32,198 bases of DNA from Crocinitomicaceae bacterium. Its GTDB lineage: Bacteria > Bacteroidota > Bacteroidia > Flavobacteriales_G > Salibacteraceae. The translations under genes and the position numbers were made by a program. The stretch is from positions 1 through 32,198 of the forward strand of contig JAAZVO010000001.1 in NCBI GenBank assembly GCA_018623405.1, written 5' to 3'. The notes beneath the pieces are model-generated. The model had not been told where the DNA came from and made no database searches. It saw nothing but the letters and a program-made list of their open reading frames with translations. Below, piece by piece: positions 9,276-32,074 of the stretch (positions are counted from its first letter, which is position 1; each line of letters begins with the position of its first letter).

Positions 9276-9279
9276 CATT

Positions 9280-9693
9280 ATGAAACTTTTTAAATTCTTT
9301 TTAGTCGGTATATTTTTCGGAATTGCACTCTCTAAAGGAGAGGTAGTATCTTGGTTTCGTATCTACGAAATGTTCCGTTTCGATGCATTTCACATGTACG
9401 GAATAATAGGCTCTGCAGTTGTATTAGGAGCATTAATAACATGGTTTATAAAACGAACTTCAATGAAGAGCGTGGAAGGCAGCTTAATAAAGTTTACGCC
9501 AAAAAAGTTTAGTATTCCTCGTTATTTGGTTGGAGGAACTTTTTTTGGACTAGGTTGGGCCATGGTTGGAGCTTGCCCTGGCCCTATGTATATTTTAGTA
9601 GGTAAAGGCTTTTTCACCATTTTCATTGTAATTATTGGAGCTATTATTGGCACCATGATTTACGGAGTGCTAAGACCCAAATTACCTCATTAA
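9280..9693 (+). CDS. YeeE/YedE family (DUF395) sulfur-compound transporter, second half
   Basis: 137 aa starting MKLFKFFLVGIFFGIALSKGE, with conserved GACPGP. The tracked start at 9103 overlaps the porin gene and is rejected. Confidence 0.85.
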   Translation: MKLFKFFLVGIFFGIALSKGEVVSWFRIYEMFRFDAFHMYGIIGSAVVLGALITWFIKRTSMKSVEGSLIKFTPKKFSIPRYLVGGTFFGLGWAMVGACPGPMYILVGKGFFTIFIVIIGAIIGTMIYGVLRPKLPH

Positions 9694-10377: not shown

Positions 10378-10398
10378 GGGTCAAAGGTGATGAAAAAG

Positions 10399-10418
10399 AT
10401 GATTTATATCATAAATCA
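10399..10418. promoter_or_regulatory. Nested palindromes in the methyltransferase/sqr divergent region: ATGAT-TTAT-ATCAT (FNR-like TGA-N6-TCA core) and TGATTTAT-ATC-ATAAATCA
   Basis: Read directly. The 8-3-8 palindrome is perfect. Confidence 0.35.
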
Positions 10419-10436
10419 CTGTTTTTTACGCTATTA

Positions 10437-10452
10437 GGTGACCAAAATCACA
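10437..10452. promoter_or_regulatory. CRP/FNR-type box GGTGA-CCAAAA-TCACA upstream of sqr
   Basis: 9/10 match to TGTGA-N6-TCACA. Its centre lies 28.5 nt upstream of the TAACTTTG -7 box, the same architecture as at tauE. Confidence 0.5.
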
Positions 10453-10472
10453 ATTATACGCTAGATGTGAAA

Positions 10473-10480
10473 TAACTTTG
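10473..10480 (+). promoter_or_regulatory. Candidate -7 promoter box for the sqr-cydAB operon
   Basis: TAACTTTG matches TAnnTTTG, 25 nt upstream of the ATG at 10506. Confidence 0.5.
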
Positions 10481-10505
10481 AACCTTAAACCAAAACCAAT
10501 TTATT

Positions 10506-11783
10506 ATGGCAGAGAAACATCACCAAATAGTAATTATTGGAGCAGGAACAGGCGGAATTACTGTAGCTGCACAATTGTTGAGAAAAAACAAATCTTTAGA
10601 TGTAGTAATTGTTGACCCATCAGACAAGCATTATTACCAACCCGCTTGGACATTAGTAGGCGCAGGAACTTTTGATTATAAAGATACCGTAAGAGATCAA
10701 GCATCTGTTATTCCTCCCGGTGCAAAGTGGATACAAGAGTATGCAGAAGAAGTAGATCCGGAAAACAACGCTGTTAAATTAAGAAACGGAGATACGTTAA
10801 CATATGATTTTTTAGTGGCTTCGCCAGGAATCCAAATTGATTTAGATGGAATTGAAGGCCTAAAAGAAGCAATGGGTAAAAATGATGTTTGCTCCAATTA
10901 CGTTGATCCTGACTATACATGGGAAGTACTACAAAACTTTAAAGGCGGAAACGCTTTGTTTACTCAGCCTGCAACACCTATTAAGTGCGGAGGCGCCCCT
11001 CAAAAAATTATGTATTTAGCAGATGACCATTTTGCTAAATCAGGAATAAAAGATAAAACCAACGTAATTTTTGCAACTCCCGGTACTTCAATATTTGGTG
11101 TGCCAGAATTTGCTAGAACCTTAATGAATGCGATTAACAGAAAAGGAATCATCTTAAAGTTCTATCATAAATTAGTGAAAATTGATGGTGAAAATAAAAA
11201 GGCAATTTATGAGCTAACAGCAACAGATGAAAGTAATTGTATCATTACTGTTAATGATGACAATAACGTTATTCACGAAGAAATTGTAGGTACAACCAGG
11301 CTTACCATTCCTTATGATATGATGCATTTGGCTCCACCACAATCTGCCCCCGATTTTATTAAGACTTCTAAAATCTCTCATCAAGAGGGAGGTAGTAAAG
11401 GTTGGGTAAAAGTTGACCAAAACAGTTTGCAAAACCCAGATTACCCTAATGTATTTGCCCTTGGCGATGTTGCAGCTTTACCTACGGCAAAAACAGGAGC
11501 AGCAGTAAGAAAACAGGCTCCGGTAGTGGTAGATAATTTGCTAAAATTAATTGCCCATAAAGAGGCAAACAACAAAGGCTACACTGGCTATTCTTCTTGC
11601 CCATTAGTAACCGGTTACGGCAAAATGGTACTAGCAGAGTTTGGTTATGGCAACAAAAGAATGAGCGATCCTATCCTCTCTAAACTTGTGGATACCACAA
11701 AAGAGCAATGGAGTATGTGGATACTTAAAAAATACGGATTGCCTTACATGTATTGGAATTTAATGCTTAGAGGTAAGGCCTAA
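10506..11783 (+). CDS. sqr: Sulfide:quinone oxidoreductase, type II (SQRDL-like flavoprotein)
   Basis: 425 aa. FAD fold IVIIGAGTGGITVA, HYYQPAWTLVGAG, redox Cys contexts KCGGAPQK and SSCPLVTGYGK, and GDVAALPT. Confidence 0.85.
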   Translation: MAEKHHQIVIIGAGTGGITVAAQLLRKNKSLDVVIVDPSDKHYYQPAWTLVGAGTFDYKDTVRDQASVIPPGAKWIQEYAEEVDPENNAVKLRNGDTLTYDFLVASPGIQIDLDGIEGLKEAMGKNDVCSNYVDPDYTWEVLQNFKGGNALFTQPATPIKCGGAPQKIMYLADDHFAKSGIKDKTNVIFATPGTSIFGVPEFARTLMNAINRKGIILKFYHKLVKIDGENKKAIYELTATDESNCIITVNDDNNVIHEEIVGTTRLTIPYDMMHLAPPQSAPDFIKTSKISHQEGGSKGWVKVDQNSLQNPDYPNVFALGDVAALPTAKTGAAVRKQAPVVVDNLLKLIAHKEANNKGYTGYSSCPLVTGYGKMVLAEFGYGNKRMSDPILSKLVDTTKEQWSMWILKKYGLPYMYWNLMLRGKA

Positions 11784-11788
11784 AGCCA

Positions 11789-11980
11789 ATGGAGAAAGTA
11801 AAACAAACCTTTATATTATTTGCGGTTGTAACGGTACTTTACTTTCTGTTAAAAGTAATACCTCATCCACCTTTTTTGGATGAGCATACTTACAGGAAAA
11901 GCATTAAAGCGTTTTTAGGGCTCCTACTTTCGGTAGGAGCCTTATTTATTTATCAACCTCCCAAAAACAAATCGGTTTAA
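11789..11980 (+). CDS. Small two-TM membrane protein preceding cydA (possibly the DUF4492-type protein often found next to Bacteroidota cydAB)
   Basis: 63 aa with two hydrophobic helices. It starts 5 nt after sqr, and its stop overlaps the cydA start (TAATG). The family assignment is from memory and was not verified. Confidence 0.55.
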   Translation: MEKVKQTFILFAVVTVLYFLLKVIPHPPFLDEHTYRKSIKAFLGLLLSVGALFIYQPPKNKSV

Positions 11981-13371
11981 TGGAATATACAGTAGAGTTT
12001 TTATCCAGATTACAATTTGCTGCCACTGCAATGTTCCACTACATTTTCCCTCCATTTAGTATTGGCTTAGGGCTAATCTTGGTAATTTTCGAATCGTACT
12101 ATTTTATTACCAAAGACAAGGTGTATGAAAATATAACCCGTTTTTGGATAAAAATATTTGCAGCTAATTTTTCGGTAGGAGTTGCCTCAGGCATTGTGTT
12201 AGAGTTTGAATTTGGTACCAATTGGGCTACTTACTCTCGCTTTGTTGGAGATGTTTTTGGTTCGCCTTTGGCTGCCGAAGGAATATTTGCTTTCTTTTTG
12301 GAGTCAGGCTTTTTAGCCATTTTATTGTTTGGGTGGAATAAGGTAAAACCGTGGGTGCATCTCTTTGCCACTTTCATGGTTTTTATCGGTTCAATGATGT
12401 CTGGTTTTTGGATAGTTGCAGCAAACTCATGGCAACAAACCCCTGTAGCCTATGAGGTAATTACCGATGCTTCAGGCATCACCAAAGCCGTTATCACAGA
12501 TTTTTGGGAGATGGTTTTTAACCCATCAACACCTTCAAGGTTTTCACACACTATTATAGGAGCCTTTTTACAAGGTTCGTTTCTAGTATTAAGTATATCA
12601 GCATATTACCTCTACAAAAAAATACACTTAGAGTTTGCTACCCGTTCATTCACTATTGCTTTAGGAGTGGCGTTTGTTTCAGCTTTGGCGCAACCACTAT
12701 TAGGCCATGAAAGCGCCAAGGTAGCGTATGAATACCAACCGGCAAAAATGGCTGCTTTCGAAGGTTTGTATGAAACAAAAGACAATGCGCCACTTTACCT
12801 TTTTGGTTGGGTAGATGAAGAAGCGGAGCAAACAAAAGGTATAGCAATTCCCGGCATGCTGAGTTACTTATTAAACTGGGATAACGACTTTGTAGTTAAG
12901 GGGTTAAATGAATTTCCTGAGGAAGAAAGACCACCTGTAAATGCAGTTTTTCAATCGTATCATTTAATGGTAGCCATTGGTATGGGATTAATTCTTATTA
13001 CATTTCTAGGATTGTTATTGCTCTACAAGAAAACCGTATTCAGAAAAAAATGGATTTTATGGATTTTTATGCTGTCGGTTTTCCTGCCGGTTTTTGCAAA
13101 CCAAGCAGGGTGGATTTCTGCAGAAAGAGGCAGGCAGCCTTATACTGTGTATGGATTACTAAAAACCTCTGAAAGCTACTCTAAGTCTTTGGTTGAGAGC
13201 GAGGTATTAACAAGTCTTATTCTCTTCTTTTTAATTTATGGTTTGCTGTTTTTTACTTGGTTATTTGTTTTGAATAAAGAAATTCAGCATGGCCCTGAAA
13301 CCTTAAACCCTGAAGATAATTTGTATAGGCAAAGAAAACTAAGAATTAACCTCTTAAAATTCTTAAAGTAA
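11980..13371 (+). CDS. cydA: Cytochrome bd ubiquinol oxidase subunit I
   Basis: 463 aa. RLQFAATAMFHYIFPPFSIGL, GWISAERGRQPYTVYGLL, short Q-loop type. Confidence 0.95.
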   Translation: MEYTVEFLSRLQFAATAMFHYIFPPFSIGLGLILVIFESYYFITKDKVYENITRFWIKIFAANFSVGVASGIVLEFEFGTNWATYSRFVGDVFGSPLAAEGIFAFFLESGFLAILLFGWNKVKPWVHLFATFMVFIGSMMSGFWIVAANSWQQTPVAYEVITDASGITKAVITDFWEMVFNPSTPSRFSHTIIGAFLQGSFLVLSISAYYLYKKIHLEFATRSFTIALGVAFVSALAQPLLGHESAKVAYEYQPAKMAAFEGLYETKDNAPLYLFGWVDEEAEQTKGIAIPGMLSYLLNWDNDFVVKGLNEFPEEERPPVNAVFQSYHLMVAIGMGLILITFLGLLLLYKKTVFRKKWILWIFMLSVFLPVFANQAGWISAERGRQPYTVYGLLKTSESYSKSLVESEVLTSLILFFLIYGLLFFTWLFVLNKEIQHGPETLNPEDNLYRQRKLRINLLKFLK

Positions 13372-14444
13372 TGGACTACAATGTTGTTTGGTTTTTAATT
13401 GTGGGGTTTTTATTGGTAGGTTATGCCATTCTAGATGGATTTGATTTAGGTGTTGGTGCGTGGCATTTTCTCGGAAAAACCGACCATGAAAGAAGAATAT
13501 TAATGAACTCGATTGGTCCCGTTTGGGATGGAAACGAAGTTTGGCTTGTTACCGCCGGTGGTGCTTTGTTTGCTGCATTTCCGGATGTGTATGCAACCGC
13601 ATTTTCAGGTTTTTATTTACCATTCATGTTTTTGCTATTTGCTTTAATTTTTAGGGCGGTTAGCATTGAGTTTAGGAGTAAAGAAGAAAGTAAAACTTGG
13701 CGAAACTTTTGGGATTGGTGCTTTTCACTAGGTTCTATTGTTGCTGCACTATTGTTTGGTATAGCAATAGGAAATGTAATTGTTGGATTCGAAATTGGAT
13801 CTGATAAAGAATACCAAGGTGCCTTTCTAGATTTAGTTTCACCCTACACAGTGCTCACAGGAATATTTAATGTTATTATGTTTATGATGCATGGCGCCAT
13901 TTACTTAACTTTAAAAACCGAGGGGGACCTTCAAAAACGAGCAAAAAAATGGGCATCAAAAACCTATTTTGTTTTTCTGATTTTATATGCTTTTGTTACT
14001 GCTTTTACCATTTTCATTAGACCTGAAATGTTAGCCAACTTCTCTTTTGGGATGATGGAGCCTTCTACCAATCACCCTTTAATAATAAACCACCAAATAT
14101 TTATTTCTGTAGTTGCTTGGAGTATAGTGTTGTTAAATGCCTTAGCCATACTAAACATCTTAAGGGCATTAACTAAAAACAAGTTTTTGCAAGCCTTTGT
14201 TTCATCAGCATTAATGATGGCGGCAATAATTCTATTTTTTGCTTTAGGTTTATTTCCTAATATGATGGTTTCAACCTTATCACCTGATTTTAGCTTGGAT
14301 ATTTATAATTCCTCCTCATCAGATTATACCTTAAAAACCATGTTTGTTTTAGCCTTAATAGGGATGCCCTTTGTAATTGCTTACACCACAATTATTTACT
14401 GGAGTTATAGGGGGGTTACTAAAATTGATGAGCAGAGTTACTAA
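13371..14444 (+). CDS. cydB: Cytochrome bd ubiquinol oxidase subunit II
   Basis: 357 aa. AILDGFDLGVG and GPVWDGNEVWLVTAGGALFAAFP. TAATG overlap with cydA. Confidence 0.93.
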   Translation: MDYNVVWFLIVGFLLVGYAILDGFDLGVGAWHFLGKTDHERRILMNSIGPVWDGNEVWLVTAGGALFAAFPDVYATAFSGFYLPFMFLLFALIFRAVSIEFRSKEESKTWRNFWDWCFSLGSIVAALLFGIAIGNVIVGFEIGSDKEYQGAFLDLVSPYTVLTGIFNVIMFMMHGAIYLTLKTEGDLQKRAKKWASKTYFVFLILYAFVTAFTIFIRPEMLANFSFGMMEPSTNHPLIINHQIFISVVAWSIVLLNALAILNILRALTKNKFLQAFVSSALMMAAIILFFALGLFPNMMVSTLSPDFSLDIYNSSSSDYTLKTMFVLALIGMPFVIAYTTIIYWSYRGVTKIDEQSY

Positions 14445-24425: not shown

Positions 24426-24772
24426 ATATAGAAGAGTTTAGGGCATATTGTTTATCTAAAAATGGTGTTACTGAAGAAACACCATTTGGGCCTGACACTT
24501 TGGTTTTAAAGGTTTCAGGTAAAATGTTTGCAGCTGCCGGAATAGAGTTGTTTGAGCGATTTAATGTTAAGTGTGACCCTATTGTTGCCATGGAGCTTAG
24601 AGAAAAATTTGATGCCGTAGAGCCGGGTTGGCACATGAATAAAACACATTGGAATACTATTTATGTAAACCGCGATTTGGGAGATAAACAATTAAAGCAT
24701 TGGATAAATCACTCATACGATTTAGTAGTATCTAAGCTCCCAAAATCAAAACGCGACCAATTAAAAAAATGA
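24422..24772 (+). CDS. MmcQ/YjbR-family protein
   Basis: 116 aa. EEFRAYCLSKNGVTEETPFGPDTLVLKVSGKMFA is typical of the family. Confidence 0.75.
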   Translation: MNIEEFRAYCLSKNGVTEETPFGPDTLVLKVSGKMFAAAGIELFERFNVKCDPIVAMELREKFDAVEPGWHMNKTHWNTIYVNRDLGDKQLKHWINHSYDLVVSKLPKSKRDQLKK

Positions 24773-25368
24773 AAAATACCATTAGTTTAATCTTGAAAGG
24801 TTTAGCGAGCTACTTTATTCAAGGCTTACTATTTGTTGTGCCAATAGCAGGAACCATTTTACTTATCCTATATCTGTTTTCTTTTTTAGATGGCATTATT
24901 CAATTCGAATATCCAGGTCTAGGTATATTAATATTAGTTTCAGGACTCACCTTTGTTGGTTTTTTAGCCAATACAATTATTGCCAAACCCATAATTAACT
25001 ATTTCGAAAAGCTTATAAATAGAGCGCCTTTGCTAAAATTAATTTATACAGCTTTAGCCGATTTAGTTGGGGCATTTGTAGGAAAAAAGAAATCATTTAA
25101 CCAACCGGTTTTGGTTAAAATTAGCGATGAACAAGAGATTGAAAAACCTGGTTTTGTTACAAGTGAAGATTTAGAAAAGGTTGGAATTGAAGGTGATAAA
25201 GTGGCAGTTTATTGTCCTCATTCTTATGCCTTTTCAGGATACGTAATTATTGTGCCGTCAAAAAACATTACTCCGGTAAATGTAAAAGCTGCAGATTTTA
25301 TGAAGTTTATTGTTTCAGGTGGAGTTACCAAAATGGAGAAGAAAACTGAAAAACCTTCCAATGAATAG
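24769..25368 (+). CDS. DUF502-domain membrane protein
   Basis: 199 aa with two N-terminal TM helices and a conserved ..PLLKLIY.. region. Confidence 0.7.
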   Translation: MKNTISLILKGLASYFIQGLLFVVPIAGTILLILYLFSFLDGIIQFEYPGLGILILVSGLTFVGFLANTIIAKPIINYFEKLINRAPLLKLIYTALADLVGAFVGKKKSFNQPVLVKISDEQEIEKPGFVTSEDLEKVGIEGDKVAVYCPHSYAFSGYVIIVPSKNITPVNVKAADFMKFIVSGGVTKMEKKTEKPSNE

Positions 25369-26257
25369 CTTTATTGATAAGTACAAAAATCATTTGCTAT
25401 TGCACTTTATTGTGCTTATTTGGGGGTTTACCGGAATTTTAGGAAAGGTAATTACCCTAAACTCATCTGCATTGGTTTGGTACAGAATGCTAATTGCTTT
25501 TTGCGGTATTGGCATTTACATTGCTTTTTCAAGTATCAAGTTTACTTTCTCATTTAAGAAAACCCTAAAATACATTGTAGTGGGTTTTGTGGTTGCCGGG
25601 CATTGGGTGTTTTTTTTTGAGGCTGTTAAGGTTTCAAACGTTTCGGTAACCTTAGCATGTTTAAGCTCTACCACTTTATTTGTATCGTTTATTGAGCCGC
25701 TTTTCTACAAAAGAAAAATTATTCCCTACGAGGTTTTTTTAGGTGCATTGGTAATTATTGGGTTAACCCTAATTTTCAATTTTGAACCTGAGTACAGACT
25801 AGGAATAATATATGCTTTGATAGCAGCATTTTTAGCTGCTACATTCGGAACATTAAATGGCGTATTGGTAAAAAACGACAGGCCTCGAATTATTTCATTT
25901 TACGAAATGCTAGGAGGTGTTTTGGGTATTTCGGTTTATTTACTAATAACCGGAGGAATACACACCGTGTTTGAATTCCCTCAGGGCTTAGACCTATTGT
26001 ATCTCTTAATTTTAGGGTTGATATGTACTGCTTTTGCTTTTGTGGTAAGTGTTGAGGTATTAAAATATTTGTCGCCCTATACAGTTAGTATTTCCATAAA
26101 CATGGAGCCAATTTATGCAATTATTTTGGCTCTAATTTTCTTTGGAGATGATGAGAAAATGGGATTAGGCTTTTATTCAGGAGCATTAATTATTTTATCT
26201 ACCATTTTTGCCAATGCATGGTTAAAGGCAAGAAAAAGGAAGCTTGAAAAAGCATAA
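25361..26257 (+). CDS. EamA/DMT-superfamily transporter
   Basis: About 298 aa and 10 TM helices in two EamA repeats. I prefer the ATG at 25361 (8-nt overlap with the DUF502 stop) over the tracked start at 25310. Confidence 0.85.
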   Translation: MNSFIDKYKNHLLLHFIVLIWGFTGILGKVITLNSSALVWYRMLIAFCGIGIYIAFSSIKFTFSFKKTLKYIVVGFVVAGHWVFFFEAVKVSNVSVTLACLSSTTLFVSFIEPLFYKRKIIPYEVFLGALVIIGLTLIFNFEPEYRLGIIYALIAAFLAATFGTLNGVLVKNDRPRIISFYEMLGGVLGISVYLLITGGIHTVFEFPQGLDLLYLLILGLICTAFAFVVSVEVLKYLSPYTVSISINMEPIYAIILALIFFGDDEKMGLGFYSGALIILSTIFANAWLKARKRKLEKA

Positions 26258-26297
26258 CCAACCATCAAAAATTTAGGGTTAAAAACCTATTGGCCTT

Positions 26298-26305
26298 TAT
26301 ATTTG
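26298..26305 (+). promoter_or_regulatory. Candidate -7 promoter box for pepC and the downstream sulfotransferase cassette
   Basis: TATATTTG matches TAnnTTTG, 14 nt upstream of the ATG at 26320. It lies inside the tracked TTG-start extension, which argues against that extension. Confidence 0.4.
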
Positions 26306-26319
26306 AGCAAACTAATTTT

Positions 26320-27474
26320 ATGAAACGAATATTCATTTTTATAGCAATAATTTCATCCTTGTCAATTCGTGCGCAAGAAAAAGTAATGACTTATGAAAAA
26401 GGATTTGAATTAGAGGTGTTGTATGACGTTGATAAATCTGCTGTAGAGAATCAATATAGGTCTAGCACCTGTTGGAGTTTTTCTTCCAATTCTTTTTTAG
26501 AATCTGAATTGCTTAGAATGGGAAAAGACCCTGTGGATATTTCTGAGATGTTTATTGTTTGGAATACCTATCGCGATAAAGCCGAAAAGTACGTGAGAAT
26601 GCATGGTAATTTCAACTTTGGTCCGGGTGGGGCTTTTCACGATGTTTTTTACGTAGCTAAAAATTATGGTTTAATGCCTGAAGAGGCATATCCGGGATTG
26701 CTAAAAGGTGAGGAGTTTCCGGTACACATGGAAATGGATGACATGCTTAAAGCAATGGTAGATGTAGTTGTAAAAAATCCAAACAGAAAACTAACAAATG
26801 AATGGAAAGGTGCAGTAGAAGGAGTATTAGATGCTTACTTGGGCGAAAAACCCGATAAGTTCGATTACAAAGGCAAAACTGTTACGCCACGTCAATTTGC
26901 TGATAACCTAGGTGTAAACTGGGATGATTATGTTGAGATAGGCTCTTTCACTCATCATCCTTTTTACGAAAAGTTTATCATTGAAATTCCTGATAATTGG
27001 ATGTTAGATGAAATTTACAATGTGCCTCTAAATGAGCTACAAGAAATTATGGAGTATGCCCTTTCTAAAGGTTATTCGTTTGCTTGGGGCGCAGATGTTA
27101 GCGAGAGAGGTTTTTCATGGAAACACGGTGTAGCCATTGTGCCTGAAAATGATTGGAATTCTGATGAAAAAGAAATTGCAGACTCTTTATTAAGTAATCC
27201 TATCAAAAACAGAGAAATTACGCAAGAATACCGCCAACAAGAGTTTGATAACTACAATACTCAAGATGATCATGGAATGCATATTACAGGGTTGTGTAAA
27301 GATGAAAATGGCACTAAATATTACATCGTGAAAAATTCTTGGGGTATCAAAAACGATGCAGAGGGGTTTATTTATGCTTCTGAAGCGTATGTTTTGTTAA
27401 AAACCATTGATATTATGGTGCATAAAGATGCTATTCCTGAGAAGATAAAAAGGAAATTCCAAAACTTTAAATAA
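26320..27474 (+). CDS. pepC: Aminopeptidase C / bleomycin-hydrolase-like C1B cysteine peptidase with signal peptide
   Basis: Signal peptide MKRIFIFIAIISSLSIRAQ. Catalytic Q..C in QYRSSTCWSFSS, His in DDHGMHITG, Asn in VKNSWG. Confidence 0.88.
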   Translation: MKRIFIFIAIISSLSIRAQEKVMTYEKGFELEVLYDVDKSAVENQYRSSTCWSFSSNSFLESELLRMGKDPVDISEMFIVWNTYRDKAEKYVRMHGNFNFGPGGAFHDVFYVAKNYGLMPEEAYPGLLKGEEFPVHMEMDDMLKAMVDVVVKNPNRKLTNEWKGAVEGVLDAYLGEKPDKFDYKGKTVTPRQFADNLGVNWDDYVEIGSFTHHPFYEKFIIEIPDNWMLDEIYNVPLNELQEIMEYALSKGYSFAWGADVSERGFSWKHGVAIVPENDWNSDEKEIADSLLSNPIKNREITQEYRQQEFDNYNTQDDHGMHITGLCKDENGTKYYIVKNSWGIKNDAEGFIYASEAYVLLKTIDIMVHKDAIPEKIKRKFQNFK

Positions 27475-28256
27475 TGCCTCTTGGTGGTCTTTTTAGAAGA
27501 AAACTAAAGAGGAATGTTTTTTTTCATATTCCTAAAACAGGAGGATCTACTCTTATTGGTGCTTTAAAGGAGCAATACCAAATAAATGATCAAATTCCTA
27601 CCCATGTTACCAAAGTAATTGGTGACTTGGAAATTTTTCATGTTGATTTTAAAGATCTAGAAAGAAAGTTTGAAGGACGGTATATTTTAAAGAAAATAGA
27701 TAAATATCCTAAAACAAACTTCTATATGATTCTTAGAGAGCCGGCCTCAAGATTATTATCGGAATTTAATTTTCAATTCCATATTTTAAATGGAAAGAAT
27801 AAAAACCCTAGTGCTGCTATTTTAAAAAAGGTTGGTTTCAGGCCACAATCTTTTTCTGAATATATCAGATTACCTGAGGTTCAAAATTACCAATCTAAGT
27901 TTTTATTAGGTCGACCCTTGGCAGATCCAAGATTAGTTGAAGAGAAAGAGCTTCAATCTCTTTTAAACATATTAAATCAACCCAATATGTTTTTTGGAAT
28001 TACTGAGAGTTATTCATCTTTTTTAGGTCTTTTTCAAATTAACTCAGCAATGAAACTCCCAGAAAAATTGATTATGAGAAAGAAAACACCAAAACAGATG
28101 AACTTAAAAATTTCATCAAATGATCTAGATTATATCAAGGAAAACAATCAATTAGATTATGAATTATATGAATTTGGTTTAGGAAAATTGAAAAGCTATT
28201 CAAAACAACCAAATACTAATCATAAATTTATTGACCCTAATAATTTTACCGTTTAA
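27474..28256 (+). CDS. PAPS-dependent sulfotransferase (Sulfotransfer_2 / HS-O-sulfotransferase-like), copy 1
   Basis: 260 aa. 5'-PSB loop FFHIPKTGGSTL and 3'-PB motif LREPASRLLSEF. TAATG overlap with pepC. Confidence 0.8.
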   Translation: MPLGGLFRRKLKRNVFFHIPKTGGSTLIGALKEQYQINDQIPTHVTKVIGDLEIFHVDFKDLERKFEGRYILKKIDKYPKTNFYMILREPASRLLSEFNFQFHILNGKNKNPSAAILKKVGFRPQSFSEYIRLPEVQNYQSKFLLGRPLADPRLVEEKELQSLLNILNQPNMFFGITESYSSFLGLFQINSAMKLPEKLIMRKKTPKQMNLKISSNDLDYIKENNQLDYELYEFGLGKLKSYSKQPNTNHKFIDPNNFTV

Positions 28257-28999
28257 TGTTTAGCTTTTTTAGAAAGAACCTCTCTCCTGCACCAATTCCG
28301 GAGATTTATTTAGGGAAGTTATCGAAAAGTGATTTCGAAAAAAACTTTTTTGCCCAAAGGAAGCCTGCATTGATAAAAGGAGGAATCAAAGATTGGTCAA
28401 TATTTCGCAATTGGAGTATTGAATATATTTCGAAAATGGCAGGAAATGAACCATGCACTATAGTTAATGATTCAAGGCCTGCTGCTTCAAAAAAGAGATC
28501 TACCCTGAAGCAATACTTTTTAGAGGAAAGAAACTCTGCAACTCTTTCCTTGACAGACTATAAAAAAGGGGCCAAACCAAAGTTTTTTAAAGACCTTGAA
28601 ATTCCTAATAAACTTTATGGGTTTAGTGACATTTATCGGTACTTCTTTTTCCATGCACCAATAGAATCGGGAACCTTGCCTCACAATCATGGAGATGCGT
28701 TCAATCACTTGGCATATGGAAAAAAATCATGGGTTTTGTTTGATGCTGATCCATTAAAAGATTTAAAAGGGTATGATTTATTAATGAATTTTAATAGAAA
28801 CTATCCTGTGGGTTCACATTCAAAAGATTGGTTTAAAAAGGAGGTTCCTAAATTGGGGAAATCGATTTCAAGCTATTTCCATTTTACTCAGGAACCAGGC
28901 GATATCGTTTATATTCCTCATAGGTTTGCTCATGCAGTTTTAAATTTTTCTGAAGTAATGGGAATTGTGATTGAAACAAAGAGATATGAAAGCAGGTAA
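28256..28999 (+). CDS. JmjC/cupin-8 Fe(II)/2-oxoglutarate-dependent oxygenase
   Basis: 247 aa. N-terminal F..QRKPALIKGGIKDW..W typical of JmjC-only proteins. Triad H145-G-D147 ... H226 (LPHNHGD, PGDIVYIPHRFAHAV) and 2OG Lys in YGKKSWVLF. Confidence 0.78.
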   Translation: MFSFFRKNLSPAPIPEIYLGKLSKSDFEKNFFAQRKPALIKGGIKDWSIFRNWSIEYISKMAGNEPCTIVNDSRPAASKKRSTLKQYFLEERNSATLSLTDYKKGAKPKFFKDLEIPNKLYGFSDIYRYFFFHAPIESGTLPHNHGDAFNHLAYGKKSWVLFDADPLKDLKGYDLLMNFNRNYPVGSHSKDWFKKEVPKLGKSISSYFHFTQEPGDIVYIPHRFAHAVLNFSEVMGIVIETKRYESR

Positions 29000-30092
29000 A
29001 GACAAGATTATTTTTATTCATATTCCTAAAACTGGAGGAACAACAATTAATACGGCCATGCAGGGTACTTATTGGCAAACTACCCCTGACTTTAATTATA
29101 GACATATAGATGGCAAAACAATGATCTCCAACACAGGGGATATTTTTAGACCATCATCTTTTGAAAAGTATAAAGATTTCAGGGTTTTTACCATGTTTCG
29201 AGATCCAGTAGATAGAATATTGTCTGAGTATTCGTTTATTAAAGAGAGACGGGATTTTATGAATTTACTAAAGCCCCAACCAAAGTCATTTGAAGAATAT
29301 GTGACGAATAGCCAAACTTCTAATGGAGTTTTAAAATTCTTACTAGGAAATAGAATGTATTCTACTATTAAACTAACAGAAGATGATCTGCAAAGAGTAA
29401 TTGATGCGATTCATGAGATTCCTATACATATCGGAATATTTGAAGAATTTGGCAAGTCACTTTCCTATTTTTCGGCTGTAACAGGAATTGATTGGGGAAA
29501 GAAAATAGAAGTAAAGAGAATTACCTTTAAAAGACCAAGAGTAAAAGATATTTCTGATGATATAAAACAAAAAATAATGGAAATGAATCCTCTTGATATT
29601 AAGTTATATCAAGCTGGTAAAGAGCTTTTCGAAAAAGAGGCAAGTGGTGTAAAATCAAATATTAAATTTTTGTCTGATAAATATAATCACGCTATTCCTT
29701 ATGCCTACAATTTTTGTTTTTTTGAGTATTGTATGGAGAATAAACTATTCATAAATCAAAACTTGGCCTTTTTCAAAACTATGACCCATTACTTGATAAA
29801 AGAAGAAAAGCTTAATGATGGGAGAGCATTTACTAAGTCTTGGATTCTTTCTTTTATGAGCCACTTTCAGCATCAATTTGGAAATACTAACACATTTAGG
29901 GAAATCCAAAAAATTATGAATCAAAAGTTAGAGCCCTTAGACTTGTTAGAGAACATAGCAGAAAGAATGGACCACTTATTTAAGAGCCAGGGTAAAGCTG
30001 AATTAAATAGAATAAAATTAAATTTTGAAAAGACATTAGTTCAAGTTCATAAACCTAGTCTTTCAGATAGGTTGGGTAAACTTTTTGGCTAA
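28986..30092 (+). CDS. PAPS-dependent sulfotransferase, copy 2, with an uncharacterised C-terminal extension of about 150 aa
   Basis: 5'-PSB IFIHIPKTGGTTI and 3'-PB FRDPVDRILSEY. The start is ATG at 28986 or 28971; both overlap the JmjC gene (14 or 29 nt). Confidence 0.8.
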   Translation: MKAGKDKIIFIHIPKTGGTTINTAMQGTYWQTTPDFNYRHIDGKTMISNTGDIFRPSSFEKYKDFRVFTMFRDPVDRILSEYSFIKERRDFMNLLKPQPKSFEEYVTNSQTSNGVLKFLLGNRMYSTIKLTEDDLQRVIDAIHEIPIHIGIFEEFGKSLSYFSAVTGIDWGKKIEVKRITFKRPRVKDISDDIKQKIMEMNPLDIKLYQAGKELFEKEASGVKSNIKFLSDKYNHAIPYAYNFCFFEYCMENKLFINQNLAFFKTMTHYLIKEEKLNDGRAFTKSWILSFMSHFQHQFGNTNTFREIQKIMNQKLEPLDLLENIAERMDHLFKSQGKAELNRIKLNFEKTLVQVHKPSLSDRLGKLFG

Positions 30093-31531
30093 TAAACCAT
30101 TAGCCTCGGTTCTGTAATTTCTTCCATAGTATATTTTATCCCCTCTCTGCCTAAGCCGCTGTCTTTTACACCACCGTAGGGCATACTATCAATTCTAAAG
30201 CCCGGAATATTGTTGATCATTACGCCACCAACTTCTAATTCTTTATGTGCATATTTCATGTGGTCAACACGGTTGGTAAAAACACCAGCCTGAAGTCCAA
30301 AAACAGAATCATTAGTTTGGGCAATTGCATCTTCAAAACTTTTGGCTTTTTCAATGGTGGCTACCGGACCAAAAACTTCCATATCGCAAACCTTCATTCC
30401 TTTACCTGTATTGGTAAGTAGGGTTGGAGCATAAATATTATGTTCTTCATCTAAAATTTTTCCACCTGCTAAAACTTCAGCACCTTTTTCAACAGCTTCT
30501 TTTACCCAATCATCAATTCTATTTAAATGCGTTTTATCGATAATAGGGCCAACCGAATTTTTTAATTCCATGGGGTTTCCTGCTGCAACTGCATTTATTT
30601 CTGAGGTGAGCAAACTTTTAAACTCATCAAATACAGAATCTACCACCAAAATACGTTGAGTAGAAATACAAATCTGACCTGCATACAAAAAGGCACCTAT
30701 TGCCGTAAGTTTTGCAGCTTCTTTTAGGTTAGCGCTATCATCAACAATAACTGCAGCGTTGCCGCCTAACTCCAATGCTACTTTTTTCTTACCACAAATG
30801 GTTTTTAAATACCATCCCACTTGAGGGCTTCCGGTAAAAGAGAAAAACTTAAACCGGTCGTCTCGTACCATTTTTTCTGCTTCAGGAATATCGGCCACCA
30901 ACACGTTTACCACTCCTGCTGGATAACCTACTTCATCTACCAATTTTGCAAATGCAAGCGCAGTTAAAGGAGATTGTGGTGCAGGTTTAAGTGTAATTGA
31001 GCAACCTGCTGCTAGTGCCGGGGCAATTTTATGCAAGGCAAGGTTTAAAGGGAAATTAAATGGAGAAATTGCTGCAATTGGTCCAATTGGAAATCTTTTG
31101 GTAAAGGCTGTTTTACCTTCGCCATTGTTATAATCTAGAGGTACCATTTCGCCCGAAAATCTAATGGCTTCTCGTACTGCTGTTTCAAGTGTAACTATGC
31201 ATCTATCTACTTCTCCTTTGGCATAGCTTAAAGGTTTTCCCGCTTCGCAAGCAATTAACTCGGCAAAAGCTTCTTTTTTGCTTTCAAAAGCTTCTTTTAG
31301 CTTCATTAAGTATTCAGACCTTTTTCCTGCACTCCACTTCCTGATGATGTTAAATCCATCAACAGAAGATGCAATAGCTTCTTCCATTTGAGCTTCAGAA
31401 ACAAAAGGAACCTCACCTATAAGCGTGTTTTCATATTTATCGTAAACAGCTAGGTTTTTGCCGTTGCCCTCATTATAATAAGCGCCATTTATATAGTTTT
31501 CTAGGTTTAGAATATCTTGAAGTGTGGGCAT
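30089..31531 (-). CDS. NAD(P)+-dependent aldehyde dehydrogenase family protein
   Basis: 480 aa. FTGSPQVG, ELGGNAAVIV (catalytic Glu), AGQICISTQR (catalytic Cys), and EVFGPV. Its 3' end overlaps the sulfotransferase-2 stop by 4 nt. Confidence 0.92.
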   Translation of the reverse strand: MPTLQDILNLENYINGAYYNEGNGKNLAVYDKYENTLIGEVPFVSEAQMEEAIASSVDGFNIIRKWSAGKRSEYLMKLKEAFESKKEAFAELIACEAGKPLSYAKGEVDRCIVTLETAVREAIRFSGEMVPLDYNNGEGKTAFTKRFPIGPIAAISPFNFPLNLALHKIAPALAAGCSITLKPAPQSPLTALAFAKLVDEVGYPAGVVNVLVADIPEAEKMVRDDRFKFFSFTGSPQVGWYLKTICGKKKVALELGGNAAVIVDDSANLKEAAKLTAIGAFLYAGQICISTQRILVVDSVFDEFKSLLTSEINAVAAGNPMELKNSVGPIIDKTHLNRIDDWVKEAVEKGAEVLAGGKILDEEHNIYAPTLLTNTGKGMKVCDMEVFGPVATIEKAKSFEDAIAQTNDSVFGLQAGVFTNRVDHMKYAHKELEVGGVMINNIPGFRIDSMPYGGVKDSGLGREGIKYTMEEITEPRLMVY

Positions 31532-31579: not shown

Positions 31580-32074
31580 TTACAGGGTTAATTTTCCTGA
31601 AAATTTTGTTCCGAATGAAATTTGAGTTTTAGATTCCTCAAATGCATCAAATGTTTGGCAAATTGATTTGTTTGGCCAATGTAATTCTGCTGTTTTTTGG
31701 GATGAGTTATAAATTGCAGTGTAAAAGGTTTCAAAAGATTTTTCGAACTTTTGACTGTAAAGTGGTTTGGCCAAAAACTTCCTAATTAGCTCTTCTTTAG
31801 TTTCTGATTGATTGTATAAACAAGTTTCGAGGTAGGCTAGTCTTTCGCGAGTTTCTGTAAGTTCGGCATAGTCTTCCCATTCTACTTGGCCTTGGTGGTT
31901 TGTACCTATGGGGTAATCTAAAACTTCTGTTTCCCTATCAGGCGCAACAAATAAAGTAACATACCTTCCTGTGGAATCTAAAACCGTTATGTTGTAACTC
32001 ATGTGTGAGGGTACTTTTTGAAATACCTTAATTACCTCGCTTACATTGCTGCAGGTTTCTGATGCATAACGCAT
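31580..32074 (-). CDS. Short ORF resembling only the C-terminal lobe of C45-type Ntn acyltransferase/peptidases; possibly a truncated gene remnant
   Basis: 164 aa. MRYASETCSNVSEVIKVFQKVPSHMSYNITVLDSTGRYVTLFVAPD resembles the mid-to-C-terminal region of C45 family proteins, which are normally over 300 aa (from memory). An in-frame stop lies 8 codons upstream of the Met. Confidence 0.35.
   Translation of the reverse strand: MRYASETCSNVSEVIKVFQKVPSHMSYNITVLDSTGRYVTLFVAPDRETEVLDYPIGTNHQGQVEWEDYAELTETRERLAYLETCLYNQSETKEELIRKFLAKPLYSQKFEKSFETFYTAIYNSSQKTAELHWPNKSICQTFDAFEESKTQISFGTKFSGKLTL

What the first reader, a model, noticed from the sequence alone, without database searches (positions are those of the whole stretch)
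27474..30092. Sulfotransferase / JmjC oxygenase / sulfotransferase cassette with no assignable substrate, coupled to a secreted C1B aminopeptidase
Three tightly overlapping genes follow pepC. The joins are TAATG at 27474 and 28256, and a 14- or 29-nt overlap at 28971/28986-28999.

The two outer genes are divergent paralogs. Both carry PAPS-binding motifs: HIPKTGG(S/T)T for the 5'-PSB loop and R(E/D)P..R(L/I)LSE(F/Y) for the 3'-PB motif.

The middle gene has a complete JmjC-type H-x-D...H iron triad and a 2OG-binding Lys.

The window contains none of the usual partners of these enzymes: no glycosyltransferase, polysaccharide export, PKS/NRPS, lipid-synthesis, precursor-peptide or PAPS-synthesis (cysDNC) gene. 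The only candidate promoter box (TATATTTG, 26298) sits upstream of pepC, so a signal-peptide cysteine aminopeptidase may be co-transcribed with three cytoplasmic-type tailoring enzymes.

JmjC-only enzymes typically hydroxylate protein or peptide side chains or modified nucleosides. Pairing one with two O-sulfotransferases suggests a hydroxylate-and-sulfate tailoring route for a peptide/protein, aminolipid or small molecule. I cannot map this to any characterised bacterial pathway.
Basis: partly seen in the sequence, partly recalled or inferred. Interest (0 to 1): 0.72.

Follow-up and report, generated by a model that had tools for sequence, protein, structure and literature searches.

The report
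Hydroxylase plus two sulfotransferases, uncharacterised cassette
A marine flavobacterium carries a conserved but uncharacterised three-gene set, an unusual JmjC-type oxygenase flanked by two sulfotransferases, that probably adds hydroxyl and then sulfate groups to a peptide or a secreted surface protein, a kind of bacterial modification predicted in 2010 but never shown.

Summary
The three overlapping genes are real, and profile and structure searches support their folds: ST1 27474-28256, JmjC 28256-28999, ST2 28986-30092.

Two details are wrong. The conserved metal motif is H143-x-H145...H226 (HxH, as in JMJD8), not HxD...H. A second promoter-like box lies at 28921, upstream of ST2.

Comparative genomics splits the triplet into two linked modules.

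1. **JmjC plus a sulfotransferase.** This is a rare, tightly coupled pair.
   - It is adjacent in every Flavobacteriales locus examined, in either order.
   - It is once fused into one protein.
   - JmjC homologues in other phyla sit beside sulfotransferases of other families (subthreshold in L009), in NRPS, carrier-protein, radical-SAM or tail-collar contexts.

2. **ST2.** This is a much larger family.
   - Its gene lies directly next to type IX secretion (T9SS) cargo genes far more often than chance (24/72 vs 15/297, p=7e-10).
   - The link is strongest for cargo with an unnamed N-terminal 'QC..SWGDGW' domain (18/72 vs 2/239, p=8e-11).
   - The window is an exception and has no such cargo gene.

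pepC is a conserved flanking gene of one lineage, not part of the unit.

The best reading is sequential hydroxylation and O-sulfation of a peptide or protein, possibly secreted surface proteins. No characterised pathway matches.

The parts
26298..26305 (+). Bacteroidetes-type -7 promoter-like box TATATTTG upstream of pepC
   Evidence: The motif is depleted in the window (19 against about 50 expected), and most + strand copies lie 22-65 nt upstream of gene starts. This is a motif match only.
26320..27474 (+). pepC-like papain-family (C1) cysteine peptidase with a predicted signal peptide (MKRIFIFIAIISSLSIRA|QEK). It is a conserved flank gene, probably co-transcribed with the cassette.
   Evidence: Peptidase_C1_2 E=1.4e-14 and Peptidase_C1 E=4.8e-11. 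The stop overlaps the ST1 start. Orthologues at 79% identity occur in L024, L029 and L030 only. It is absent from the syntenic locus L005 and from all other loci.
27474..28256 (+). ST1: 260-aa Sulfotransfer_2 enzyme, the partner of the JmjC protein. 5'-PSB HIPKTGGST at 27525-27551; 3'-PB REPASRLLSE at 27735-27764.
   Evidence: Pfam 34.6 bits against a cut-off of 22. The family has about 23 clusters. Invariant residues are H18, P20, K21, G23, G24, S25, R88, P90, R93, S96 and E97. It is adjacent to JmjC in all Flavobacteriales loci except L060 and L062.
28256..28999 (+). JmjC/Cupin_8 oxygenase, HxH variant. H143 at 28682-28684, H145 at 28688-28690, N150 at 28703-28705, K157 at 28724-28726, H226 at 28931-28933.
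   Evidence: Cupin_8 at 43.2 bits. PDB sequence hits are JMJD6 at 1.4e-7 (6e-14 with the profile) and JMJD5. The AF2 model has pLDDT 87 and its top Foldseek hit is JMJD5 at 5e-10. LPHxH is invariant, including in other phyla.
28921..28928 (+). Second -7-like box TAGGTTTG inside the 3' end of JmjC, 65 nt upstream of the ST2 ATG. A possible internal promoter.
   Evidence: This is a motif match only. It fits ST2 being a separable module.
28986..30092 (+). ST2: 368-aa Sulfotransfer_2 enzyme with an extra C-terminal helical domain of about 145 aa and unknown function. 5'-PSB HIPKTGGTT at 29019-29045; 3'-PB RDPVDRILSE at 29199-29228.
   Evidence: Pfam 37.8 bits. The family has more than 254 clusters. 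The AF2 model has pLDDT 90.6, and its top Foldseek hits are HS6ST and HS2ST. The C-terminal domain has no Pfam or PDB match. It is enriched next to T9SS cargo genes.
30053..30086 (+). Weak terminator-like hairpin plus T-run at the 3' end of ST2, where it converges on the aldehyde dehydrogenase gene (30089-31531, - strand).
   Evidence: The count of such sites is not above the shuffled expectation, so confidence is low.

Best explanation
The region is a sulfation cassette made of two functionally linked modules.

**Module A: JmjC plus its partner sulfotransferase ST1.** The JmjC protein is a JMJD8-like HxH variant. It keeps the 2-oxoglutarate-binding Lys and Asn. I infer that it oxidises a C-H bond of an amino-acid side chain in a peptide or protein to a hydroxyl group. 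ST1 then transfers sulfate from PAPS onto that hydroxyl.

**Module B: ST2.** ST2 is a second PAPS-dependent O-sulfotransferase with a private C-terminal helical domain. In related genomes its gene sits directly beside genes for type IX-secreted surface proteins that begin with a distinctive Cys-bracketed 'QC..SWGDGW' domain.

**Most likely overall function.** All three enzymes lack signal peptides, so they should act in the cytoplasm. I propose that they decorate a secreted or surface protein (or its peptide precursor) with sulfate esters before export. ST2 would sulfate an existing acceptor, and JmjC plus ST1 would create and sulfate an additional one.

**This window.** The cargo gene is missing from the site. 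The target would then be encoded elsewhere, or could be the co-transcribed secreted peptidase PepC.

**Shown:** gene structure, folds, cofactor-binding motifs, and the gene-neighbourhood statistics.
**Inferred:** hydroxylase chemistry, the order of the reactions, and the identity of the substrate.
For: **Operon-like structure**
- Stop/start overlaps join the genes.

**Folds and motifs**
-.

**JmjC-sulfotransferase coupling**
- The pair is adjacent in all Flavobacteriales loci examined, across at least 8 different flanking contexts.
- Five arrangements occur: ST1-JmjC-ST2; JmjC-ST1-ST2; ST1-JmjC then reversed ST2; reversed ST2 then JmjC-ST1; and ST2-JmjC.
- P0195 fuses a Sulfotransfer_2-like region to this JmjC.
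- In a Sedimenticolaceae genome and a Myxococcota genome, the JmjC homologue (36-40% identity) is immediately followed by a Sulfotransfer_1 gene (E about 1e-43). These loci carry a carrier protein (L017) or an NRPS (L018), and each has an Asp/Glu racemase.
- In L002 a Gal-3-O-sulfotransferase-like gene and two radical-SAM/SPASM genes are nearby.
- In L009 a P-loop 'THPRTGSS' ORF follows JmjC, with a tail-collar protein and an Asn-synthase-like gene nearby.

**Substrate class**
- The nearest solved relatives are protein side-chain hydroxylases, JMJD5 and JMJD6.

**ST2 and T9SS cargo**
- 24/72 flanking genes carry a T9SS C-terminal domain (CTD), against 15/297 in the background: OR 9.4, p=7e-10. 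Pfam validated this in 7/7 tested, one below the gathering score.
- The N-domain protein is found at 18/72 flanking positions against 2/239 at distance >=3: OR about 40, p=8e-11.

**Island behaviour**
- Cassette genes are 42-56% identical where flanks are 60-89% identical at the same chromosomal site, and the gene order is shuffled. This is typical of surface-decoration islands.

**Precedent**
- Iyer et al. 2010 independently predicted a hydroxylate-then-sulfate route acting on co-encoded secreted proteins.
Against: - No biochemical data exist for any member.
- The window itself has no T9SS cargo or N-domain gene.
- ST1-JmjC-only loci show no cargo adjacency.
- The HxH site departs from the canonical 2-His-1-carboxylate triad, and activity of the only named HxH JmjC (JMJD8) is disputed.
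- Sulfotransfer_2 enzymes with solved structures act on glycans, not proteins.
- Cytoplasmic modification of a Sec/T9SS substrate before export is unproven for this class.
- PAPS-synthesis genes are not nearby.
- Gene adjacency could instead reflect co-regulation, or a ligand-receptor relation between a sulfated product and the cargo domain.
- The single fusion protein lacks the 5'-PSB loop and could be a gene-calling artefact.
Confidence: 0.42

Rival explanations
1. Small-metabolite pathway. JmjC hydroxylates a free amino acid or a short, non-ribosomal-type peptide. ST1 and ST2 O-sulfate it. The product, an osmolyte, signal or antimicrobial, leaves through the neighbouring EamA-type exporter. 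A sub-variant is that the sulfate serves as a leaving group for elimination or cyclisation, as in known sulfate-activated natural-product steps (from general knowledge).
For: - Distant JmjC homologues sit inside NRPS or carrier-protein clusters with Asp/Glu racemases and sulfotransferases.
- An EamA transporter is near the cassette in the window, L005, L024/L029 and the non-syntenic L001.
- ST1-JmjC occurs as a free-standing pair in at least 4 contexts with no co-encoded protein substrate.
- In Parvicella and L016 it lies beside the ArgRS and arginase genes.
Against: - No scaffold-building genes (NRPS, ligase, precursor) occur in any Flavobacteriales locus.
- EamA belongs to the conserved flank (64-68% identity), not to the divergent cassette.
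- This reading does not explain the very strong ST2 to T9SS-cargo/N-domain adjacency.
- The closest structural relatives of the JmjC act on proteins.
Confidence: 0.25
2. Glycan or lipid decoration. ST1 and ST2 sulfate a lipid-linked cell-surface glycan or an aminolipid on the cytoplasmic face of the membrane. Candidates are a protein O-glycan, LPS, or the anchor used by T9SS cargo. The adjacent cargo proteins would bind to, or be attached to, this sulfated polymer. JmjC would modify the same carrier or an associated residue.
For: - The best structural matches for ST2 are the glycosaminoglycan O-sulfotransferases HS6ST and HS2ST.
- A glycosyltransferase follows ST1 in L021/L022.
- Cytoplasmic enzymes can reach lipid-linked precursors but not exported proteins.
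- The cassette behaves as a hypervariable island, like glycan loci.
Against: - No glycosyltransferase, flippase or sugar-nucleotide genes occur in the window or in most loci.
- JmjC-only enzymes are not known to act on sugars or lipids.
- Adjacency to individual cargo genes, rather than to glycan loci, is unexpected for a general glycan modifier.
Confidence: 0.2
3. The JmjC protein is not a hydroxylase. With its 3-His site it could carry out another oxidation (demethylation or a thiol-dioxygenase-like reaction), or serve only as a binding subunit for the sulfotransferase. In that case sulfation would not depend on prior hydroxylation.
For: - HxH replaces HxD.
- HxH is the ancestral signature of non-2OG metal cupins.
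- JMJD8, the named HxH JmjC, has disputed activity.
Against: - The residues aligning with the 2OG-binding Lys and Asn, and the Thr at -3 from H143, are conserved.
- All three His residues are invariant across phyla, which implies a functional metal site.
- Persistent pairing with O-sulfotransferases of different families is most simply explained if the JmjC supplies the hydroxyl acceptor.
Confidence: 0.1
4. The genes are unrelated and lie together by chance, so there is no common pathway.
For: - The window lacks any other pathway gene.
- The promoter and terminator evidence consists of motif matches only.
Against: - Stop/start overlaps join the genes.
- Co-occurrence persists through at least five rearrangements and many contexts.
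- The pairing is repeated across phyla.
Confidence: 0.02

Closest known systems
Bacterial dioxygenase + P-loop sulfotransferase operons predicted by Iyer, Abhiman, de Souza & Aravind 2010 (PMC2938197)
   Same: - A double-stranded beta-helix dioxygenase is genetically linked to, or in eukaryotes fused to, a sulfotransferase.
- The proposed logic is hydroxylate first, then sulfate the new hydroxyl.
- The proposed substrates are co-encoded secreted proteins or peptide metabolites.
- L009 even shows the tail-collar neighbourhood they described.
   Different: - Their operons paired beta-hydroxylase or PhyH-type 2OG enzymes, not JmjC, with sulfotransferases. They often included PAPS synthetase and collagen-like or tail-collar genes.
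- Here the oxygenase is an HxH JmjC and there are two Sulfotransfer_2 paralogues.
- No PAPS genes are present.
- The associated secreted proteins are T9SS cargo with a new N-terminal domain.
- Their proposal was itself a prediction and has not been tested.
JMJD8 (eukaryotic JmjC-only protein)
   Same: HxH...H replaces HxD/E...H in strand 2 of a JmjC domain of the JMJD6-related clade.
   Different: - JMJD8 is an ER-resident eukaryotic protein with no linked sulfotransferase.
- Orthology to the bacterial family was not tested.
- JMJD8 activity is itself unsettled.
JMJD5 / JMJD6 / JMJD7 / FIH protein side-chain hydroxylases
   Same: - They are the best sequence and structure matches.
- They share the 'JmjC-only' architecture, the 2OG-binding Lys and Asn positions, and the distal His in the G-x5-P-x4-H-x3-N motif.
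   Different: - Identity is only 16-20%.
- The acidic metal ligand is replaced by His.
- The family is bacterial and operon-linked to sulfotransferases.
Heparan sulfate 6-O- and 2-O-sulfotransferases (Pfam Sulfotransfer_2)
   Same: - The 5'-PSB and 3'-PB PAPS-binding motifs match, as does the C-terminal N-x-L-D-x-x-L-Y motif.
- They are the best Foldseek hits for ST2.
   Different: - The animal enzymes are Golgi glycan enzymes.
- ST1 and ST2 are small, signal-less bacterial proteins.
- ST2 has a unique C-terminal helical domain.
- No glycan-synthesis genes accompany them.
RaxST-RaxX of Xanthomonas (cytoplasmic sulfation of a secreted peptide; from general knowledge, not tested here)
   Same: A PAPS-dependent sulfotransferase is encoded next to the gene for the secreted polypeptide it modifies before export.
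   Different: - RaxST is a tyrosyl-protein sulfotransferase-type enzyme from a different family.
- Its substrate is a small RiPP exported by a type I system.
- No oxygenase is involved.

Membership tests
Sulfotransfer_2 (PF03567) PAPS-dependent sulfotransferases | Profile score above Pfam's gathering cut-off | tested here: met
   ST1 scores 34.6 bits and ST2 37.8 bits against a cut-off of 22.
Sulfotransfer_2 (PF03567) PAPS-dependent sulfotransferases | 5'-phosphosulfate-binding loop with catalytic Lys (PKTGG[ST]T), and 3'-phosphate-binding Arg/Ser motif | tested here: met
   ST1 has invariant K21, G23, G24, S25, R88, R93 and S96. ST2 has invariant K15, T16, G17, G18, T19, R72, R77 and S80. These align to the HS6ST motifs.
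Sulfotransfer_2 (PF03567) PAPS-dependent sulfotransferases | Sulfotransferase P-loop fold | tested here: met
   The ST2 AF2 model (pLDDT 90.6) hits HS6ST, HS2ST and the cytosolic SULTs. ST1 was not modelled.
Sulfotransfer_2 (PF03567) PAPS-dependent sulfotransferases | PAPS-dependent sulfate transfer to an acceptor | not testable with these tools
   This needs an enzyme assay.
JmjC / Cupin_8 Fe(II)/2-oxoglutarate oxygenases | Profile match and double-stranded beta-helix JmjC fold | tested here: met
   Cupin_8 scores 43.2 bits against 27.4. Foldseek hits are JMJD5 at 5e-10, then JMJD6, TYW5 and JMJD7.
JmjC / Cupin_8 Fe(II)/2-oxoglutarate oxygenases | H-x-D/E...H facial triad | tested here: not met
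   The conserved motif is H143-x-H145...H226. D147 is Asn in about 8 of 29 members and varies freely in wider relatives. The JMJD6 alignment puts H145 on D189.
JmjC / Cupin_8 Fe(II)/2-oxoglutarate oxygenases | 2OG C5-carboxylate-binding Lys (and Asn/Thr) | tested here: met
   K157 and N150 are invariant and align with K204 and N197 of JMJD6. K157 also aligns with K336 of JMJD5. T140 is nearly invariant at -3 from H143. This rests on alignment only, with no ligand modelling.
JMJD8-like HxH JmjC subgroup | HxH in place of HxD in strand 2 | tested here: met
   The definition comes from Iyer et al. Table 1 and from PMC9820096.
JMJD8-like HxH JmjC subgroup | Closer in sequence to JMJD8 than to other JmjC families | not tested
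   No JMJD8 sequence or structure was available through the tools. PDB holds none among the hits.
Iyer-type dioxygenase + sulfotransferase peptide-modification operon | Dioxygenase gene adjacent to, or fused with, a P-loop sulfotransferase gene | tested here: met
Iyer-type dioxygenase + sulfotransferase peptide-modification operon | Co-encoded secreted substrate protein (collagen-like or tail-collar) and PAPS synthetase | tested here: inconclusive
   The window has no such gene and no PAPS genes. Relatives have T9SS cargo next to ST2, and L009 has a tail-collar protein.
NRPS/PKS or RiPP biosynthetic gene cluster | Scaffold-forming enzymes or a precursor peptide in the locus | tested here: not met
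   None are in the window or in any Flavobacteriales locus. They are present only around distant homologues L017, L018 and L002.
Peptidase C1B (PepC / bleomycin hydrolase-like), for the upstream gene | Peptidase_C1_2 profile match and the papain catalytic Cys/His/Asn | tested here: met
   Peptidase_C1_2 at 54.3 bits and Peptidase_C1 at 43.6 bits. 'SSTCWSF', 'DHGMHI' and 'KNSWG' are visible in the translation. The signal peptide was judged by eye only.

The most novel reading that the evidence does not exclude
Marine Flavobacteriia post-translationally O-sulfate a class of type IX-secreted surface proteins, those carrying the unnamed N-terminal 'QC..SWGDGW' domain. They would do this with dedicated cytoplasmic sulfotransferases encoded next to each cargo gene. 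In some lineages an HxH JmjC oxygenase would first install an extra hydroxyl acceptor. This would be a bacterial counterpart of the hydroxylation and sulfation of eukaryotic extracellular-matrix proteins, and a new modification of T9SS cargo.
Probability: 0.2. Interest if true: 0.85.

Novelty: new variant of a known kind. Interest (0 to 1): 0.62.

Why it matters
- **An untested prediction.** Sulfate esters on bacterial proteins and peptides are almost unknown outside one plant-pathogen peptide. The coupling of an oxygenase to a sulfotransferase has been a purely computational prediction since 2010.
- **A compact test system.** The JmjC-sulfotransferase pairing recurs across phyla. A cultured carrier of the ST1-JmjC pair exists (Parvicella tangerina). 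ST2 gives a concrete substrate lead, the adjacent T9SS cargo with a new N-terminal domain.
- **An enzymology question.** The system could settle whether HxH-type JmjC proteins, including human JMJD8, are active oxygenases.
- **Ecological relevance.** If surface proteins of abundant marine Flavobacteriia are sulfated, this bears on adhesion, phage and grazer recognition, and particle colonisation.

Tried and rejected
1. **H-G-D as the metal motif.** The JMJD5 alignment allows H145/D147. I rejected it for three reasons. D147 is Asn in a whole clade and is variable in wider relatives, while H143 is invariant. The H-to-K157 spacing fits H143 (+14, against +15 to +17 in templates). Thr140 sits at -3. 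The geometry could not be measured because model coordinates are not exposed.
2. **pepC as part of the unit.** Rejected. There is no homologue in 20+ loci outside one syntenic lineage.
3. **Any other conserved neighbour.** All-against-all clustering of flanking ORFs found only the cargo family.
4. **NCBIfam names.** No informative hit for ST1, JmjC or ST2 (ST1 only a spurious sub-cutoff FlgF match).
5. **Naming the ST2 C-terminal domain and the cargo N-domain.** Pfam, NCBIfam, PDB sequence and Foldseek searches gave nothing significant.
6. **Literature.** I searched for T9SS plus sulfotransferase, Cupin_8 plus sulfotransferase, and JmjC plus sulfotransferase plus BGC. Only Iyer et al. 2010 was relevant.
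7. **Rfam.** No RNA family in the window.
8. **Sigma-70-type promoter and terminator scans.** Counts were at or below the shuffled expectation and are not informative for Bacteroidota.
9. **The window's own contig beyond the window.** Only a 1.7-kb duplicate contig was retrievable.
10. **PAPS-synthesis genes elsewhere in the genome.** Not testable with these tools.

Full report
**1. What is in the sequence**

Four co-directional ORFs end at a convergent aldehyde dehydrogenase gene:

| Gene | Coordinates | Notes |
|---|---|---|
| pepC | 26320-27474 | the listed TTG at 26290 is less likely |
| ST1 | 27474-28256 | 260 aa |
| JmjC | 28256-28999 | 247 aa |
| ST2 | 28986-30092 | 368 aa |

- The joins are TAATG at 27472-27476 and at 28254-28258.
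- ST2 most likely starts at ATG 28986, giving a 14-nt overlap with JmjC. Homologues are 364-368 aa and begin MxxxxIFIHIPKTGG.
- The rest of the window is ordinary core chromosome: gdh, cytochrome bd, rplM-rpsI-rpsB-tsf-pyrH-frr, a sulfide/sulfite-handling cluster, hemN and others.
- There are no glycosyltransferase, export, PKS/NRPS or PAPS-synthesis genes and no Rfam match.

**2. Fold checks**

- ST1 and ST2 pass the Pfam Sulfotransfer_2 threshold. They are about 27-31% identical to each other.
- In alignments of their own families the PAPS-binding residues are invariant.
- The ST2 AF2 model (pLDDT 90.6) hits HS6ST, HS2ST and the cytosolic sulfotransferases. Its C-terminal helical domain of about 145 aa matches nothing.
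- The middle protein passes Cupin_8. By sequence it hits JMJD6 (6e-14 with a family profile) and JMJD5.
- Its AF2 model (pLDDT 87, pTM 0.84) retrieves JMJD5, JMJD6, TYW5 and JMJD7.

**3. The metal site is HxH, not HxD**

- In 29 family members H143, H145, H226, N150 and K157 are invariant.
- 'LPHxH' also holds in the gammaproteobacterial and myxobacterial homologues.
- Among representatives from an exhaustive search of 1.84 billion proteins, the two His persist while the D147 position is D, P, Q, S, E, T, G, N or K.
- The JMJD6 alignment puts H143 on H187, H145 on D189, N150 on N197, K157 on K204 and H226 on H273.
- The JMJD5 alignment allows the alternative register. The conservation pattern, the H-to-K spacing and Thr140 at -3 all favour H143/H145. 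The Thr rule is by analogy with FIH Thr196/His199, from memory.
- Iyer et al. note that JMJD8 'contain[s] a HxH instead of a HxD'. A 2022 paper records doubt about JMJD8 activity for that reason.
- The protein is therefore a JmjC-fold enzyme with conserved 2OG-binding positions but a non-canonical 3-His site. Hydroxylase chemistry is an inference.

**4. The JmjC-sulfotransferase pair is a real functional unit**

*Rarity*
- The JmjC subfamily is rare: about 30 clusters at 90% identity, and only 10 loci in one genome for each of 185,579 species.
- Only 33 representatives score at E<=1e-30.
- ST1 is equally rare, with 23 clusters.

*Adjacency in Flavobacteriales*
- In every Flavobacteriales locus recovered, a sulfotransferase of the ST1 or ST2 type is directly adjacent to JmjC.
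- This holds across at least eight different flanking contexts and five arrangements:

| Arrangement | Loci |
|---|---|
| ST1-JmjC-ST2 | window, L005 |
| JmjC-ST1-ST2 | L024, L029, L030 |
| ST1-JmjC, then ST2 on the opposite strand | L004, L006, L008, L013 |
| ST2 on the opposite strand, then JmjC-ST1 | L021 |
| ST2-JmjC, no ST1 | L060, L062 |
| ST1-JmjC alone | L001, L007/L014/L015, L010, L016/L019 |

- L019 is the cultured Parvicella tangerina.

*Fusion protein*
- One representative, P0195, is a single polypeptide. A Sulfotransfer_2-like N-terminal part (E=7e-13 to ST1) precedes this JmjC (E=1e-29).
- It lacks the 5'-PSB loop and could be a gene-call artefact.

*Other phyla*
- In a Sedimenticolaceae genome (L017) and a Myxococcota genome (L018) the JmjC homologue is immediately followed by a sulfotransferase of a different Pfam family (Sulfotransfer_1, E about 1e-43).
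- In L017 the neighbours are a carrier-protein-sulfotransferase fusion, an aminotransferase and an Asp/Glu racemase. In L018 the gene sits inside an NRPS cluster, again with an Asp/Glu racemase.
- In L002 it lies by two radical-SAM/SPASM genes and a Gal-3-O-sulfotransferase-like gene.
- In an Opitutaceae contig (L009) it lies between an Asn-synthase-like gene and an ORF starting 'THPRTGSSLL'. That ORF has subthreshold Sulfotransfer_3/Stf0 hits. A phage-tail-collar protein is upstream.
- Replacement of the partner by sulfotransferases of other Pfam families is hard to explain unless the oxygenase supplies what sulfotransferases need, namely a hydroxyl acceptor.
- All the non-flavobacterial contexts are peptide-type.

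**5. ST2 is a separable module with its own association**

- Its family is about ten times larger, with more than 254 clusters. Only 9 of 39 non-redundant ST2 groups carry JmjC.
- I fetched 76 further ST2 loci from metagenomes and called ORFs on them. I also built a T9SS C-terminal-domain (CTD) HMM from annotated examples.
- Genes directly flanking the ST module carry the CTD in 24/72 cases against 15/297 elsewhere on the same contigs (OR 9.4, Fisher p=7e-10).
- Pfam found Por_Secre_tail in 7/7 tested, one of them below the gathering score.
- The typical layout is a divergent cargo/ST2 pair.
- Many of these otherwise unrelated cargo proteins share a mature N-terminus directly after the signal peptide. 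It is a Cys-bracketed domain of about 105-130 aa.
  - 'QC-x-Y-T-L-E-x-x-D-S-W-G-D-G-W-N-G...C-P-A-C' occurs in the MAM/fn3/GEVED giants.
  - 'QCxxGEVxVxxDxTTDxWGYExYWE' occurs in a family of about 520 aa.
- An HMM of this domain hits 18/72 flanking positions, 1/58 at distance 2 and 2/239 at distance >=3 (OR about 40, p=8e-11).
- The three tandem ST2 copies of L046 and the two of L064 are counted separately. That leaves about 15 distinct loci of 35.
- The domain has no Pfam, NCBIfam or PDB relative.
- I found no relevant paper connecting T9SS and sulfotransferases.
- Loci with only ST1-JmjC lack such neighbours.

**6. The window in this light**

- The same chromosomal site (DUF502-EamA ... aldehyde dehydrogenase) holds the cassette in the window, L005, L024, L029/L030 and L033.
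- Flanks are 60-89% identical and pepC 79%. The cassette genes are only 42-56% identical, their order differs, and pepC is missing in L005.
- In the relatives whose contigs extend past ST2 (L005, L024, L029, L033) a 1,400-1,700-aa N-domain/MAM/T9SS cargo gene sits between ST2 and the dehydrogenase gene; L030 ends at ST2. In the window the ST2 stop abuts the dehydrogenase stop.
- No CTD or N-domain ORF exists anywhere in the 32 kb.
- The site therefore behaves as a replaceable island, and this window carries the enzymes without the usual cargo.
- pepC is a secreted C1 peptidase whose stop overlaps whichever cassette gene comes first. It is best seen as a conserved flank whose promoter probably drives the cassette.
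- A second -7-like box at 28921 may serve ST2 separately.

**7. Mechanism**

- *Best reading.* JmjC hydroxylates a side chain of a peptide or protein. ST1 then O-sulfates it, and ST2 adds a further sulfate. The likely targets are secreted surface proteins, modified in the cytoplasm before export.
- *Confidence in parts.* I put about 0.6 on 'oxidise, then sulfate a common substrate', about 0.3 on 'the substrate is a T9SS cargo protein', and 0.42 on the combined statement.
- *Rivals.*
  - A sulfated small metabolite exported by EamA (0.25).
  - Sulfation of a lipid-linked surface glycan or lipid that the cargo binds or is attached to (0.2).
  - A non-hydroxylase role for the HxH protein (0.1; this overlaps with the others).
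  - Chance adjacency (0.02).

**8. Relation to what is known, and novelty**

- The idea of dioxygenase-sulfotransferase operons that hydroxylate and then sulfate co-encoded secreted proteins or peptide metabolites was put forward computationally by Iyer et al. 2010. It concerned other dioxygenase families and remains untested.
- This cassette fits that kind but differs in its components: an HxH JmjC, two Sulfotransfer_2 paralogues, no PAPS genes, and T9SS cargo with a new domain.
- I classify it as a new variant of a known (predicted) kind.
- It fails one defining feature of canonical JmjC oxygenases, the acidic ligand. I therefore file it as JmjC-fold and JMJD8-like in signature, not as a proven 2OG hydroxylase.

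**9. Verdict**

- Interest is moderate to high at 0.62. The function is unproven. However, the cross-phylum JmjC-sulfotransferase coupling and the strong ST2 association with T9SS cargo and its N-domain are specific, testable leads that I did not find reported.

Noticed in passing
L005:10056-15173, L024:9182-14299, L011:5071-10578, L006:3051-7007, L021:5989-7647, L045:8241-9803 (- strand), L073:8315-9883 (- strand), and others: An unnamed Cys-bracketed N-terminal domain of about 105-130 aa lies directly after the signal peptide of T9SS cargo proteins encoded next to ST2. It reads 'QCxYTLExxDSWGDGWNG...CPAC' or 'QCxxGEVxVxxDxTTDxWGYExYWE'. It has no Pfam, NCBIfam or PDB match. It is highly position-specific: 18/72 flanking positions against 2/239 distal.
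   Followed up: partly
window 4120-11783: A sulfur-handling gene cluster: a TauE/SafE sulfite exporter, a metallo-beta-lactamase (ETHE1-like) plus rhodanese fusion, Usp, a YeeE/YedE-like sulfur transporter, a porin-like protein and a Pyr_redox_2 (possibly SQR-like) gene. It is followed by cytochrome bd oxidase at 11980-14444. It is about 17 kb from the cassette and is not PAPS synthesis.
   Followed up: no
window-wide; + strand copies at 1296, 4098, 10473, 14507, 26298, 28921: The Bacteroidetes -7 motif TAnnTTTG is strongly depleted (19 matches against 50 +/- 6.5 in shuffles). Six of the nine + strand copies lie 22-65 nt upstream of start codons. This suggests the motif is selected against within genes and marks real promoters.
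   Followed up: partly
window 24769-31531 compared with L005, L024, L029, L030, L033: At one conserved chromosomal site the flanking genes are 60-89% identical. The cassette genes are only 42-56% identical and have a different order. pepC and the giant cargo gene are each present or absent depending on the locus. The site behaves as a hypervariable, replaceable island.
   Followed up: partly
L018:1096-18867: A Myxococcota NRPS cluster. Its genes in order are: A-C-PCP-nitroreductase/oxidase, Asp/Glu racemase, C-PCP with a TubC docking domain, the JmjC homologue, Sulfotransfer_1, a PEP-utilising/PPDK-like enzyme, and C-A-PCP-TE. It is probably a sulfated, hydroxylated non-ribosomal peptide of unknown identity.
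   Followed up: no
L017:4684-12515: A Sedimenticolaceae locus holding a class-III aminotransferase, a carrier-protein (PP-binding) plus Sulfotransfer_3 fusion, an Asp/Glu racemase, an unknown 363-aa protein, the JmjC homologue, Sulfotransfer_1 and a PhzF-like isomerase. This is an unusual carrier-protein-linked sulfation pathway.
   Followed up: no
L046 (three tandem copies after 10001) and L064 (two copies): ST2 paralogues are tandemly amplified next to a single N-domain cargo gene.
   Followed up: no
L019:10001-14227 (Parvicella tangerina OU015584.1) and L016:9423-13401: The ST1-JmjC pair is convergent with the arginyl-tRNA synthetase and arginase genes in two related genomes. This may be coincidence, or a hint at an arginine-related substrate, since JMJD5 is an arginyl hydroxylase.
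   Followed up: no
P0189, P0215, P0225, P0229 (representative proteins): Other architectures of HxH-type JmjC relatives were seen: a tandem duplicated JmjC (P0189), a JmjC with a C-terminal extension of about 200 aa (P0215), and ankyrin repeats plus an HxH JmjC (P0225, P0229; probably eukaryotic).
   Followed up: partly
window 31580-32074 (- strand): The 164-aa ORF matches only the C-terminal part of the acyl-CoA:6-APA acyltransferase (AAT) family model (positions 78-223). Syntenic loci have a 332-aa version, so the ORF start as listed may be truncated, or the gene may be split near the window end.
   Followed up: no
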